Origin: a virus | Taxonomy: Duplodnaviria > Heunggongvirae > Uroviricota > Caudoviricetes | IMG/VR virus record: IMGVR_UViG_2671180417_000017 | Location: 1 to 4,978 of that record | DNA: 4,978 nucleotides | Reading direction: 5' to 3' (one strand) | Shown: positions 2,809 to 4,941 of the stretch, piece by piece | How the letters are laid out: each line of letters starts with the position of its first letter | How positions within the stretch are numbered: position 1 is the first letter of the stretch | The notes under the pieces: generated by a model | Databases searched by the model: none | What the model was told of the DNA's origin: nothing | The model's input: only the letters and a program-made list of their open reading frames with translations | Position numbers and translations under genes: made by a program

Positions 2809-2859
2809 TGCTGCGGGTGCTTGAGGCTGTCTGCCTCGGGCATGCCACCGTAAGGCAGA

Positions 2860-2936
2860 CAGAGAAAAGCCCCAGTTAACATTACGCGTCCTGCAAGACG
2901 CCTAACATTAATCTGAGGCCAATTTCATGCTAGACA
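2860..2936 (-). ncRNA. sok: putative Sok-like antisense RNA of the hok locus (boundaries approximate)
   Basis: On the - strand, -35 TTGCCT (plus 2965-2970) and -10 TAACCT (plus 2942-2947) with a 17-bp spacer would start an antisense transcript near 2935 covering the mok SD/start (2915-2929). An imperfect hairpin (about 2881-2906) follows but has no clean U-tract, so the 3' end is uncertain. Confidence 0.3.
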
Positions 2937-3139
2937 CATGTAGGTTAGCCTCTTACGCGCCGAAAGGCAAGGAGAAGCAGGCTATGAAGCAGCAAAAGGC
3001 GATGTTAGTCGCCCTGATCGTCATCTGTATTACCGTCATTGTGACGGCACTGGTAACGAGGAAAGACCTCTGCGAGGTACGAATCCGAACCGGCCAGACG
3101 GAGGTCACTGTCTTCACAGCTTACGAACCTGAGGAGTAA
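2927..3139 (+). CDS. mok: Mok-like N-terminally extended reading frame (70 aa) in frame with hok
   Basis: ATG 2927 with GAGG (2915-2918) 8 nt upstream. N-terminus MLDTCRLAS... resembles chromosomal MokC (MLNTCR...) from memory. Same frame and stop as hok. Confidence 0.5.
   Translation: MLDTCRLASYAPKGKEKQAMKQQKAMLVALIVICITVIVTALVTRKDLCEVRIRTGQTEVTVFTAYEPEE
2984..3139 (+). CDS. hok: Hok/Gef-family type I toxin (51 aa), HokD/RelF-like
   Basis: ATG 2984 with AAGGAG (2969-2974) 9 nt upstream. Protein MKQQKAMLVALIVICITVIVTALVTRKDLCEVRIRTGQTEVTVFTAYEPEE is near-identical to my recollection of E. coli HokD/HokC: TM helix followed by the conserved RKDLCEV...TEV..F.AYE periplasmic tail. TAA 3137-3139. 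Confidence 0.9.
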   Translation: MKQQKAMLVALIVICITVIVTALVTRKDLCEVRIRTGQTEVTVFTAYEPEE

Positions 3140-3348: not shown

Positions 3349-3528
3349 ATGAGCTACGCACTAAAAAAACACCCGCGATTGACTATTCCCCCTCGCGATA
3401 AAAGCGTTGTGGCAGCTCCGCGCCCGGCTATCGATGAAAATTGCACTCATCGTGAGCAGGTGAAAAATGCTTTCGATTTCGGTTTTTCTCGTTACGAGAA
3501 GGCAATGGAAGAACTTTCAAAAGTGTAA
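3349..3528 (+). CDS. putative antitoxin partner of the Doc-family toxin (59 aa; not Phd/YefM-like)
   Basis: ATG 3349 with AAGGG (3335-3339) upstream; the ORF track begins the frame at TTG 3304. Stop TAA 3526-3528 lies 18 nt before the Doc ATG, the usual antitoxin-then-toxin arrangement. Sequence MSYALKKHPRLTIPPRDKSVVAAPRPAIDENCTHREQVKNAFDFGFSRYEKAMEELSKV matches no antitoxin family I recognise. Confidence 0.6.
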   Translation: MSYALKKHPRLTIPPRDKSVVAAPRPAIDENCTHREQVKNAFDFGFSRYEKAMEELSKV

Positions 3529-3546: not shown

Positions 3547-4032
3547 ATGGCTGAGATTGTTGAAGGAGTGCACTACCTTTCGTTTGATGATCTTACCGAA
3601 ATTAATCGCCTTTTAATTGAGCTTCAAACACCAGATGAACCTGTTAGTGTGCTGAGTGTTGATAATTTAAGTTCTTCTCAGTCTCGTCCCAGCATGGTTC
3701 GATGGTATGAACAGACTAATGACATGTTTGTACTGGCATCAGTATTGATTGAAAGTCTGATTCAGAATCATCCATTTGCTAATGCAAACAAACGAACAGC
3801 TATGATGGCTGGTTATGTCTTCTTGTTGTTGAATGGCTATGAGTTAACAGCACCAGGCGATGAAATCGTGGAAATGGCAGAGGGACTGGCCTGCAAAACC
3901 TATACTCGAGAAGATCTCGAGAACTGGTTGTGTTATTGGTCTCGTGCGTATGACGGCCGGGAATTATGTAAAACAGGCGCAACTGTTGTTTTGTATGAAA
4001 CTATCAAGCTTAAAATAGAACAGCAAAACTAA
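3547..4032 (+). CDS. doc: Doc/Fic-family toxin (death-on-curing-like, predicted kinase/AMPylase fold), about 161 aa
   Basis: Motif HPFANANKRTA fits the Doc signature H-x-F-x-(D/N)-(A/G)-N-K-R, and the flanking helices (ASVLIESLIQN before, MMAGYVFLLLNGYEL after) parallel P1 Doc. Start is ATG 3547 or in-frame TTG 3538. Stop TAA 4030-4032. Confidence 0.85.
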   Translation: MAEIVEGVHYLSFDDLTEINRLLIELQTPDEPVSVLSVDNLSSSQSRPSMVRWYEQTNDMFVLASVLIESLIQNHPFANANKRTAMMAGYVFLLLNGYELTAPGDEIVEMAEGLACKTYTREDLENWLCYWSRAYDGRELCKTGATVVLYETIKLKIEQQN

Positions 4033-4048
4033 AGGTGCTTCTAATGAA

Positions 4049-4068
4049 AACCCGCTTCGGCGGGTTTT
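4049..4068. terminator. bidirectional rho-independent terminator (A-tract, CCCGC TTCG GCGGG, T-tract)
   Basis: GAAAACCCGCTTCGGCGGGTTTTGTTGT: the same 20-mer AACCCGCTTCGGCGGGTTTT as at 3208-3227. Sits between the convergent doc (+) and HTH antitoxin (-) genes, with A-run upstream and T-run downstream. Confidence 0.7.
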
Positions 4069-4082
4069 GTTGTATTGGAGTA

Positions 4083-4400
4083 TCATGATATTACCTGGAT
4101 TCCGTTTTTCTCTACGACTGAAAGAAGGCGAAGAGCGGCACCTCCCGGCCGTTTTACACCACGTTCCCAGTCTGATATCAGGTTTTTACTGACGTTGAGG
4201 TATCTGGCAAAAACAGGTTGAGACAGATGCTCTCGTTCGCGCAGTGCACGGATCCTTTCCGGAGACATTACCGGCGCTGGCTGGAGACAAGTTTCATCGA
4301 ATTCTCGCATAGTCTGTTTCGTTACTGCGCCGATATCATGAAGCGATTCCATCATTTCATGTACGGATGCAAGCGCATCACTGCGGTAATTTTTACTCAT
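4083..4400 (-). CDS. HTH-XRE family antitoxin (HigA-like), 105 aa
   Basis: ATG (plus 4398-4400) with GGAGGT SD (plus 4406-4411 reverse complement) 5 nt upstream; stop TGA (plus 4083-4085). C-terminal HTH LSQPVFARYLNVSKNLISDWERGVKRPGGAALRLL is typical of XRE-type antitoxins. Lies immediately downstream of a RelE-like toxin frame on the same strand. Confidence 0.85.
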   Translation of the reverse strand: MSKNYRSDALASVHEMMESLHDIGAVTKQTMREFDETCLQPAPVMSPERIRALREREHLSQPVFARYLNVSKNLISDWERGVKRPGGAALRLLSVVEKNGIQVIS

Positions 4401-4454
4401 TGGGTACCTCCGTAAACTGACCCTGTAGAATCAGTTGTGCCAGTTGTTCATCTG

Positions 4455-4762
4455 TTAGATTGAGTACGTGAGGAGCCCCTTCCGAAATGCACTTTCCTCA
4501 GTAGCGGTTATATTTTCACGTTCATTTTTTGCGTATGCATATACGAAAAAGGCCCTTGTGCCGACGCGATAGAAAATGATTGTGCGATAACCGCCAGATT
4601 TGCCGCCACCGACTCGTGGCAGACGTTGCTTGATAACGCCGTTACCCAGGTTTGCTGAGATAAGCCCGTTATCAGCCTGTTTAACAATTTCGCGCAGTGA
4701 TTGGTCGGATATTTTGTTTTGCGTGCAAGTCGCTCAAACCAGGCGTTTTTAAAAATGCGCAT
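4455..4762 (-). pseudogene. RelE/ParE-superfamily toxin (DUF1044-like, GGGKSGGYRT motif) disrupted by a 1-nt frameshift in an A4 run
   Basis: Frame A from ATG (plus 4760-4762) encodes MRIFKNAWFERLARK... and ends at TAA plus 4508-4510. The -1 frame from about plus 4721 encodes KISDQSLREIVKQADNGLISANLGNGVIKQRLPRVGGGKSGGYRTIIFYRVGTRAFFVYAYAKNERENITATEESAFRKGLLTYSI, ending at TAA plus 4455-4457. Both pieces look like one conserved toxin; the junction is the TTTT run at plus 4717-4720. Adding one A restores an ORF of about 101 aa. Confidence 0.65.
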
Positions 4763-4784
4763 TTTTTGTTCCGTTATTAATGTA

Positions 4785-4799
4785 TAACACATAGTGTTA
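4785..4799. promoter_or_regulatory. perfect inverted repeat TAACAC-ATA-GTGTTA, candidate operator in the divergent promoter region of the RelE-like/HTH module
   Basis: Read directly; lies 23-37 nt upstream of the toxin ATG on the - strand and overlaps the likely promoter. XRE antitoxin dimers typically bind such dyads. Confidence 0.45.
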
Positions 4800-4829
4800 C
4801 ATTGCGTAGGGATCTGCAATGCCATCAGT

Positions 4830-4859
4830 TTGACAACGTCGCGTGTTCGGGGCTATATT
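4830..4859 (+). promoter_or_regulatory. putative sigma70 promoter (-35 TTGACA, 18-bp spacer, -10 TATATT) reading rightward
   Basis: Consensus -35 TTGACA 4830-4835 and TATATT 4854-4859. Divergent from the - strand TA module. Confidence 0.4.
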
Positions 4860-4920
4860 CCTCACGCGCCAGCAAAACCTGGCGTCGGGATTAGCACCCC
4901 GGATATCGAAACGGTGCATA

Positions 4921-4941
4921 ACCGCGCTGGCGGTTTTTTTA
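4921..4941 (+). terminator. putative rho-independent terminator (ACCGC GCTG GCGGT, then T7)
   Basis: Short GC-rich hairpin followed by TTTTTTT 4934-4940, about 75 nt downstream of the putative promoter. Confidence 0.5.

What the first reader, a model, noticed from the sequence alone, without database searches (positions are those of the whole stretch)
4455..4762. RelE-like toxin inactivated by a single-base frameshift in an A-run while its antitoxin stays intact
The conserved N-terminus (MRIFKNAWFERLARK) and the conserved core (GGGKSGGYRTIIFYR...AYAKNERENI) are in different frames, joined at a 4-nt A-run (plus 4717-4720, TTTT). One added A restores a single ORF of about 101 aa. The 105-aa ORF in the six-frame track is therefore a chimera of a spurious upstream extension plus the out-of-frame tail. 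This is either a toxin decaying while the antitoxin/regulator persists, a slippery homopolymer acting as an on/off switch, or a homopolymer sequencing error.
Basis: seen in the sequence. Interest (0 to 1): 0.6.

Follow-up and report, generated by a model that had tools for sequence, protein, structure and literature searches.

The report
Decayed prophage toxin gene, antitoxin kept
This is a dead copy of a HigB-2/RelE-type toxin gene in an E. coli O104:H4 prophage, broken by two single-base deletions rather than one, while the neighbouring antitoxin gene is intact; this is an ordinary, well-known way for toxin-antitoxin pairs to decay.

Summary
On the minus strand the toxin gene starts at ATG 4762 and changes frame at the A-run 4717-4720, which has 4 A where intact alleles have 5.

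A C is deleted from GGCGG, leaving GGGG at 4476-4479. This puts the conserved C-terminal 27 residues into a third frame, which ends at TAA 4395-4393 and overlaps the antitoxin ATG at 4400.

Restoring both bases gives a 123-aa protein that matches Pfam PF06296 end to end (E 6e-46). It is 98% identical to intact E. coli proteins. Adding only the A gives a truncated 102-aa product.

The sequence is identical in 17 complete genomes, mostly named O104:H4, so it is not a sequencing error. No length variation is seen in that set, so it does not behave as a switch.

Close alleles carry at least four different lesions, in all combinations. Broken alleles also accumulate amino-acid changes, including F12L at an invariant residue here. 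The 105-aa HTH antitoxin stays identical and has its own Shine-Dalgarno sequence.

Verdict: a toxin pseudogene beside a retained antitoxin. This is a known phenomenon and of low interest. RefSeq annotates the fragment as a coding gene starting at ATA.

The parts
4393..4762 (-). Toxin pseudogene of the PF06296 (HigB-2-type RelE/ParE) family. It runs from ATG 4762 to TAA 4395-4393 and is read in three successive frames.
   Evidence: With both bases restored, the 123-aa protein matches PF06296 at 1-120/120, E 6.4e-46.
4717..4720 (-). Lesion 1: an A-run of 4 where intact alleles have 5 (codons 15/16, RKNK).
   Evidence: Intact HCP4S3_I4, SCU-104, 2013C-3033 and JNEC-KY203 all have AAAAA.
4476..4479 (-). 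Lesion 2: GGGG left by deletion of the C of GGCGG (codon 96, an invariant Ala). The missing base falls between 4478 and 4477.
4727..4729 (-). Codon 12 is CTT (Leu). All 39 aligned family members have Phe here.
4508..4825 (-). Mechanical 105-aa ORF. It is a spurious upstream extension, then the 15-aa true N-terminus, then an out-of-frame tail. The 84-aa product from ATG 4762 is what GenBank records call a hypothetical protein.
4455..4712 (-). The fragment that RefSeq annotates as an 85-aa 'RelE/ParE family toxin' (WP_309487867.1). It starts at ATA. This frame has no ATG, GTG or TTG.
4083..4400 (-). Intact 105-aa antitoxin of the HigA-2 type: an N-terminal segment followed by a C-terminal HTH_3 domain (WP_000042397.1).
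   Evidence: HigA-2, E 7.9e-8; protein identical in all the chromosomal alleles fetched that carry a broken toxin.
4407..4411 (-). GGAGG Shine-Dalgarno sequence, 6 nt before the antitoxin ATG. It would allow translation without coupling to the toxin ORF.
   Evidence: Read directly from the sequence. Its function is inferred.
4783..4801 (-). TGTAACAC-TAT-GTGTTATA, an imperfect palindrome (7 of 8) upstream of the toxin ATG. It is identical in the divergent allele group B and is a candidate operator or promoter element.
   Evidence: Its function is inferred, not tested.
4047..4068 (.). Terminator-like G+C-rich hairpin between the convergent antitoxin and Doc genes.

Best explanation
The region is the remnant of a two-gene type II toxin-antitoxin operon in a lambdoid prophage of E. 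coli O104:H4, lying near the NinB/NinE genes. The toxin gene comes first and originally overlapped the antitoxin gene by 8 nt.

The toxin belongs to Pfam PF06296. The studied member of that family, Vibrio cholerae HigB-2, is a ribosome-dependent mRNA endonuclease.

In this window the toxin gene is a pseudogene. One A is lost from an A5 run at codons 15/16. One C is lost at codon 96. An invariant Phe12 is replaced by Leu.

Translation from the native ATG at 4762 yields an 84-aa product, of which only the first 15 residues are toxin. The conserved core has no canonical start codon of its own.

The antitoxin gene is intact and has its own GGAGG ribosome-binding site. It is probably still made, as an orphan repressor and neutraliser.

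Shown here: the lesions, family membership, fixation in the O104:H4 genomes, independent lesions in relatives, and relaxed constraint on the toxin. Inferred: loss of toxin activity, continued expression of the antitoxin, and its present role.
For: 1. Three frames tile the PF06296 profile. Restoring both bases raises the match from 130.4 bits over profile positions 1-95 to 155.9 bits over 1-120 of 120.
2. There are 1271 homologues at E <= 1e-10. The best 120 listed are almost all 123-124 aa with about 100% coverage. The closest is an intact 123-aa E. coli protein, 98% identical and found on 654 contigs.
3. In intact alleles the gene is 372 nt and overlaps the antitoxin gene by 8 nt.
4. Seventeen complete genomes, mostly named O104:H4, are 100% identical to the window over 771 bases.
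5. Of 37 full-length close alleles, 31 are broken and 6 are intact. Some states are inferred from match length and identity. All four combinations of lesion 1 and lesion 2 occur, and a lesion-2-only 102-aa form exists.
6. Further independent lesions exist: a lost A at codon 90, a lost A in the A6 run at codons 79-80, and an added G in a G-run in allele group B.
7. Substitutions are 6 nonsynonymous to 2 synonymous in broken alleles, against 2 to 10 in intact ones (Fisher p = 0.019).
8. F12 and A96 are invariant in 39 family members.
9. The core frame has no ATG, GTG or TTG.
10. Among 8 broken chromosomal alleles the antitoxin protein is identical, with 2 silent changes. Across its divergent allele dN/dS is about 0.05.
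11. A model of the 98%-identical intact homologue (pLDDT 86) has V. cholerae HigB2 as its ten best PDB matches. The antitoxin matches HigA-2.
Against: - No expression or activity data exist for either gene.
- Lesion 1 alone leaves a long core ORF, which RefSeq annotates as a CDS. A very low level of ribosomal slippage at A_AAA and G_GGG cannot be formally excluded.
- The counts behind the selection tests are small, and some allele states are inferred from match length rather than read.
- The operon promoter was not identified by the consensus scan, so transcription of the antitoxin is assumed.
Confidence: 0.9

Rival explanations
1. Homopolymer sequencing or assembly error: the real genome has an intact toxin gene.
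For: Lesion 1 lies in a homopolymer, the classic site for such errors.
Against: - Seventeen separately deposited complete genomes, from several laboratories, have exactly this sequence.
- The 4-A state recurs in unrelated strains (FORC_069, ML35, PS2C, LZHX12, cM8a, AST198) and in phage PhiR12_3.
- The exact 84-aa out-of-frame product is on 210 contigs.
- Lesion 2 is loss of a C between Gs, not a change in homopolymer length.
Confidence: 0.01
2. A regulated switch: either phase variation by slippage of the A-run, or programmed -1 ribosomal frameshifting that produces small amounts of full-length toxin.
For: Both junctions lie on 4-nt homopolymers (A AAA and G GGG), where a single tRNA could re-pair in the -1 frame (read from the sequence). 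Both A4 and A5 states exist in the population.
Against: - From established knowledge, a 4-nt run is well below the roughly 7-9 nt typical of contingency loci and of transcriptional slippage.
- There is no X XXY YYZ heptamer at either site.
- No tract variation is seen in the 17 genomes identical to the window.
- Two independent shifts would be needed.
- Sequence downstream of the shift is not under purifying selection in A4 alleles: nonsynonymous changes dominate and further frameshifts accumulate.
- Intact alleles need no frameshift.
Confidence: 0.03
3. The annotated 85-aa fragment (4455-4712, RefSeq WP_309487867.1) is a genuine, shortened but active toxin.
For: RefSeq lists it as a CDS with no pseudogene flag. 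The fragment scores 102 bits against PF06296.
Against: - The frame has no ATG, GTG or TTG, and the annotated start is ATA.
- In sister alleles the annotated start moves to ATT or ATC.
- Read from the model of the 98%-identical intact homologue, the fragment lacks the first strand and helix (residues 1-15) and the last 27 residues, which are half of helix 87-101, helix 105-113 and strand 117-120.
- Residues 5-12, 14 and 15 of the missing N-terminus are invariant across the family, as are 96-97 at the start of the missing C-terminus.
Confidence: 0.03

Closest known systems
Vibrio cholerae HigB-2/HigA-2 (PDB 5JAA, 5JA8, 8A0X), the studied member of Pfam PF06296
   Same: - Same Pfam family.
- Same gene order, toxin first (PMC11980606 Table 1).
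- The antitoxin has a C-terminal HTH and matches HigA-2 at E 7.9e-8.
- The ten best structural matches for the model of the intact homologue are all HigB2.
   Different: - Only about 20% identical, with TM-scores of 0.5-0.6.
- The E. coli protein is 123 aa, against about 110 aa.
- It is carried on a prophage rather than in the superintegron.
- Here the toxin gene is dead.
Intact E. coli prophage alleles of the same gene (P0001, 98% identical; WP_077168034.1 in strain HCP4S3_I4, which differs from the restored sequence only at F12L; group B WP_001217944.1 in O157:H7 and O26:H11)
   Same: Same locus type. The antitoxin is identical (WP_000042397.1) or differs by one residue (WP_000042395.1). A hok/sok module lies nearby.
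   Different: Those alleles have a continuous 372-nt ORF. The window lacks two bases and carries F12L.
Orphan antitoxins left by degraded type II TA modules, and the anti-addiction idea (reviewed in PMC7354431)
   Same: An intact antitoxin next to a toxin remnant. The review describes surveys in which a high percentage of the orphan antitoxins identified appeared to derive from degraded canonical systems.
   Different: Nothing here shows that the antitoxin neutralises an incoming toxin. That remains a hypothesis.

Membership tests
PF06296 (HigB-2-type RelE/ParE toxin) | Full-length match to the family profile above the curated cut-off | tested here: met
   The doubly restored protein scores 155.9 bits against a cut-off of 27, over profile positions 1-120 of 120. 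The unrestored frames tile positions 1-34, 15-95 and 94-120.
PF06296 (HigB-2-type RelE/ParE toxin) | RelE/HigB2-like fold | tested here: met
   Tested on the 98%-identical intact homologue P0001, not on the window product. Model pLDDT is 86. The top ten PDB matches are V. cholerae HigB2, with probability 1.00 and TM-scores of 0.5-0.6.
PF06296 (HigB-2-type RelE/ParE toxin) | Toxin-first operon with an HTH antitoxin immediately downstream | tested here: met
   The restored stop at 4395-4393 overlaps the antitoxin ATG at 4400. Intact alleles show the same 8-nt overlap. The antitoxin matches HigA-2.
PF06296 (HigB-2-type RelE/ParE toxin) | An uninterrupted, translatable coding sequence, meaning a functional member rather than a remnant | tested here: not met
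   Two one-base deletions are present, and the core and tail frames have no canonical start codon.
PF06296 (HigB-2-type RelE/ParE toxin) | Ribosome-dependent mRNA cleavage that is neutralised by the antitoxin | not testable with these tools
   Known only for V. cholerae HigB-2 (PMC11980606).
Phase-variable contingency locus | A long homopolymer or short-repeat tract, typically 7 nt or more, inside the ORF | tested here: not met
   The tract is 4 A in the window and 5 A in intact alleles. The length threshold comes from established knowledge.
Phase-variable contingency locus | Tract length varies among closely related isolates, and a single change toggles the ORF | tested here: not met
   The 17 genomes identical to the window over 771 bases show no variation. 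Adding one A gives a truncated 102-aa product because of lesion 2.
Programmed -1 ribosomal frameshift site | An X XXY YYZ slippery heptamer, with purifying selection on the downstream frame | tested here: not met
   CGC AAA ACA AAA TAT and CGG AAG GGG CTC contain no heptamer. A4 alleles accumulate nonsynonymous changes and further frameshifts.

The most novel reading that the evidence does not exclude
The antitoxin is kept by selection after repeated, independent loss of its toxin, because it has a use of its own. It might neutralise the intact HigB-2-type toxin of incoming related prophages (anti-addiction or superinfection advantage). Alternatively it might act as a repressor in the divergent intergenic region it shares with the isrK/antirepressor module.

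The evidence is compatible with this but weak:
- At least five different toxin lesions are seen across alleles.
- The antitoxin protein is unchanged in broken-toxin lineages, with dN/dS of about 0.05 between its alleles.
- The antitoxin has its own Shine-Dalgarno sequence.
Probability: 0.25. Interest if true: 0.4.

Novelty: already known. Interest (0 to 1): 0.15.

Why it matters
There are three practical points.

1. **Annotation.** Public records describe this locus in two inconsistent ways. GenBank calls an 84-aa hypothetical protein. RefSeq calls an 85-aa 'RelE/ParE family toxin' that starts at ATA. Neither flags a pseudogene. Inventories of toxin-antitoxin systems in the 2011 outbreak lineage may therefore count a dead toxin as live.

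2. **Method.** A frameshift found by eye should be checked to the end of the family profile. Here the second lesion changes the conclusion that one base restores the gene.

3. **Biology.** This adds one more documented case of toxin-first decay of a prophage TA module with the antitoxin retained. It does not open a new question.

Tried and rejected
- **Promoter.** The sigma-70 consensus scan found no promoter for the toxin operon on the minus strand. It found only the divergent isrK promoter on the plus strand. A relaxed scan gave only two 8-of-12 matches. The promoter remains unlocated.
- **Inverted repeats.** The search around 4740-4900 returned only AT-rich palindromes straddling the ATG. 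The TGTAACAC/GTGTTATA element was found by eye and fell below the tool's length threshold.
- **NCBIfam and PADLOC.** Neither has a model matching the restored toxin. PHROGs gives only an unnamed family.
- **Sequencing error and phase variation.** Both were considered and rejected on the population data.
- **Not done.** I did not search genome contigs or metagenome collections for loci, because the protein search already answered the question about family length.

Full report
**What is in the sequence.**
On the minus strand an ATG at 4762 opens MRIFKNAWFERLARK. After the run CAAAAC (4717-4720 on the plus strand) the family-like sequence continues in a second frame: KISDQSLREIVKQADNGLISANLGNGVIKQRLPRVGGGKSGGYRTIIFYRVGTRAFFVYAYAKNERENITATEESAFRKG. 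That frame stops at 4457-4455.

A third frame then reads APHVLNLTDEQLAQLILQGQFTEVPNE. It stops at TAA 4395-4393, overlapping the ATG (4400) of the downstream 105-aa ORF 4083-4400.

It has 21 residues of upstream extension, the 15 true N-terminal residues, and 69 residues of out-of-frame tail.

**One frameshift or two.**
Against Pfam, the three frame pieces match PF06296 at profile positions 1-34, 15-95 and 94-120 of 120.
- Adding one A to the run gives a 102-aa product ending in GLLTYSI. It scores 130.4 bits over profile positions 1-95.
- Adding the A and also a C at GG^GG (between 4478 and 4477) gives a 123-aa protein. It scores 155.9 bits over the whole profile, 1-120 of 120, E 6.4e-46.

A search of 5.8 billion proteins returned 1271 homologues at E <= 1e-10. 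The best 120 listed are nearly all 123-124 aa with about 100% coverage, and all have the C-terminal segment in frame. The best hit (P0001) is an intact 123-aa E. coli protein, 98% identical and found on 654 contigs.

The family therefore does not end at either premature stop, and the window gene lacks two bases, not one.

**Where the window comes from, and whether the lesions are real.**
The 771 bases covering both genes are 100% identical in 17 complete genomes, mostly named O104:H4. They include 2011C-3493, 2009EL-2050, 2009EL-2071, C227-11 and HUSEC2011, among others.

In 2011C-3493 the locus lies in a lambdoid prophage. The gene order is CII, replication genes, DUF551, hokD, Doc, the antitoxin, the toxin fragment, an ORF6N antirepressor-like gene, NinB, NinE, RusA, NinH and Q.

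Identity across this many separate assemblies rules out a sequencing error.

**Population comparison.**
I fetched 13 close alleles and aligned them.
- Intact 372-nt genes, overlapping the antitoxin gene by 8 nt, occur in HCP4S3_I4, SCU-104, 2013C-3033 and JNEC-KY203. All have AAAAA and GGCGG.
- The window, AST198 and cM8a have both deletions.
- FORC_069, ML35, PS2C, LZHX12 and phage PhiR12_3 have only the A deletion.
- 23CRST047 has A5, the C deletion, and a further A deletion at codon 90.
- The protein collection also holds a lesion-2-only 102-aa form (P0156, P0161), and a form frameshifted in the A6 run at codons 79-80 (P0159).

I assigned unfetched genomes by identical match length and identity. 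On that basis 31 of the 37 full-length close alleles in complete genomes are broken and 6 are intact.

A second allele group is 78% identical over the toxin at the DNA level and occurs in O157, O26, O145 and O103. The two fetched alleles of the commoner match length, O26:H11 11368 and an O157 strain, are intact (WP_001217944.1). An evenly spread sample of 49 group B genomes contained 16 with a match one base longer. In the two of these that I fetched, the extra base is a G inserted in a G-run, which splits the gene.

The toxin has therefore been broken independently at five or more sites. All four combinations of lesions 1 and 2 exist. That implies either recombination between prophages or recurrent mutation.

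**Constraint.**
I compared substitutions against the intact HCP4S3_I4 allele.
- Broken alleles carry 6 distinct nonsynonymous changes (F12L, A13T, I26M, I44L, E89A, A96V) and 2 synonymous ones.
- Intact alleles carry 2 nonsynonymous and 10 synonymous changes.
- Fisher's exact test gives p = 0.019.

F12, which is Leu in the window, and A96, the site of lesion 2, are invariant in an alignment of 39 family members.

The antitoxin behaves differently. Among eight broken chromosomal alleles it shows 2 silent changes in 318 nt, against 10 variable sites in 362 nt of the toxin (p = 0.04). The antitoxin protein is identical in all of them. Against the divergent antitoxin allele, dS is about 0.8 and dN/dS about 0.05.

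The counts are small, but they point one way: the toxin drifts and the antitoxin is conserved.

**Can anything of the toxin still be made?**
The core frame has no ATG, GTG or TTG between its upstream stop (4736) and its own stop. The tail frame has none either.

RefSeq nevertheless annotates 4455-4712 as an 85-aa RelE/ParE family toxin starting at ATA. In sister alleles it uses ATT or ATC starts. These are homology-driven calls, not credible genes.

GenBank records instead call the 84-aa frame-1 product a hypothetical protein.

A model of the 98%-identical intact homologue (pLDDT 86) has this order of elements: strand 2-6, helices 7-15 and 20-31, four strands, helices 87-101 and 105-113, and strand 117-120. 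Lesion 1 removes everything after the first helix from the translated product. Lesion 2 would remove half of helix 87-101 and everything after it.

**Switch or programmed frameshift?**
Both junctions sit on 4-nt homopolymers, so a single-tRNA -1 slip is conceivable at each. Several things argue against a regulated mechanism:
- There is no slippery heptamer at either site.
- The runs are far shorter than those known to drive phase variation or transcriptional slippage. This rests on established knowledge and was not tested here.
- The 17 genomes identical to the window show no variation.
- Two shifts would be needed.
- The sequence downstream of the first shift is not under purifying selection in A4 alleles.

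I put this reading at about 3%.

**What it is related to.**
PF06296 is the family of V. cholerae HigB-2, a ribosome-dependent mRNase encoded upstream of its antitoxin (PMC11980606).
- By sequence, the restored toxin matches HigB-2 chains weakly (E 0.004), and the antitoxin matches HigA-2 at E 7.9e-8.
- By structure, the ten best PDB matches of the model are all HigB2, with TM-scores of 0.5-0.6 and about 20% identity.

The window gene is a remnant of a member of this family. It fails the one membership criterion that matters for function, which is an intact coding sequence.

Orphan antitoxins derived from degraded TA modules are well documented (PMC7354431).

**Mechanistic reading.**
Shown here: the gene structure, the lesions, their fixation in the O104:H4 genomes, and their independent recurrence in relatives.

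Inferred: ribosomes starting at ATG 4762 terminate at 4510-4508, 108 nt before the antitoxin. The antitoxin is then translated from its own GGAGG (4411-4407). It persists as a repressor of its own promoter and possibly as a neutraliser of related incoming toxins.

A 19-nt imperfect palindrome (4783-4801) is identical in both allele groups even though the sequence around it diverges. It is a candidate operator. The promoter itself was not located.

**Verdict.**
The 'decaying toxin' interpretation is right. The switch and sequencing-error interpretations are wrong. This is an ordinary pseudogene of a known toxin family, and its main practical consequence is a mis-annotation in public records.

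Noticed in passing
window 2815-2989 (+) and 2984-3139 (+): A complete hok/sok type I toxin-antitoxin module. There is an Rfam sok hit (116.9 bits, model positions 1-157 of 157) and a 51-aa Hok/Gef protein (PF01848, E 2.9e-22; annotated hokD). It appears intact, unlike the HigB-2-type toxin about 1.3 kb away.
   Followed up: partly
window 3349-3528 (+) and 3547-4032 (+): A Doc (death-on-curing, Fic-fold) toxin gene (TIGR01550, E 1.4e-35), preceded by a 59-aa ORF. That ORF has no Pfam, NCBIfam or PADLOC match; its only hit is phrog_2208, of unknown function. If it is the Doc antitoxin, it is not a recognisable Phd.
   Followed up: partly
window 4830-4940 (+): Divergent from the toxin gene is a strong sigma-70-like promoter (TTGACA, 18-nt spacer, TATATT; 11 of 12). 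It is followed by Rfam hits to isrK (74.3 bits) and to the c4 antisense targets a1/b1 (47.4 bits), and by a terminator. The next gene, outside the window, is an ORF6N antirepressor-like gene. The arrangement resembles a P1/Gifsy-type antirepressor control module.
   Followed up: no
window 4455-4712 (-); L002 1601-1939; L007 1670-1876: RefSeq (PGAP) annotates fragments of the broken toxin as ordinary CDSs starting at ATA, ATT or ATC, with no pseudogene flag. Examples are WP_309487867.1, WP_226867305.1 and WP_228355587.1. GenBank records instead call the 84-aa out-of-frame product a hypothetical protein.
   Followed up: yes
window 4083-4292 (-), compared with L004, L010, L011 and L012: The antitoxin gene is mosaic. 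Its first third is almost identical across alleles. From about 4292 onward a second allele (WP_033805719.1) differs at about 45 mostly third-codon positions but by only 6-8 residues (dS about 0.8, dN/dS about 0.05). This suggests recombination inside the gene.
   Followed up: partly
L014 and L017, about 1330-1335 (allele group B): A subset of the divergent allele group (O104:H21, O178:H19 and others) has an extra G in a G4 run. This splits the toxin gene into two annotated CDSs, or gives it an out-of-frame N-terminus. It is an independent inactivation of the same toxin family.
   Followed up: partly
L004 (Escherichia phage PhiR12_3, PV340552.1) 1569-2252: A phage record deposited as a complete genome carries the A4 (broken) toxin allele together with an intact antitoxin. 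The toxin therefore appears dispensable for the phage.
   Followed up: no
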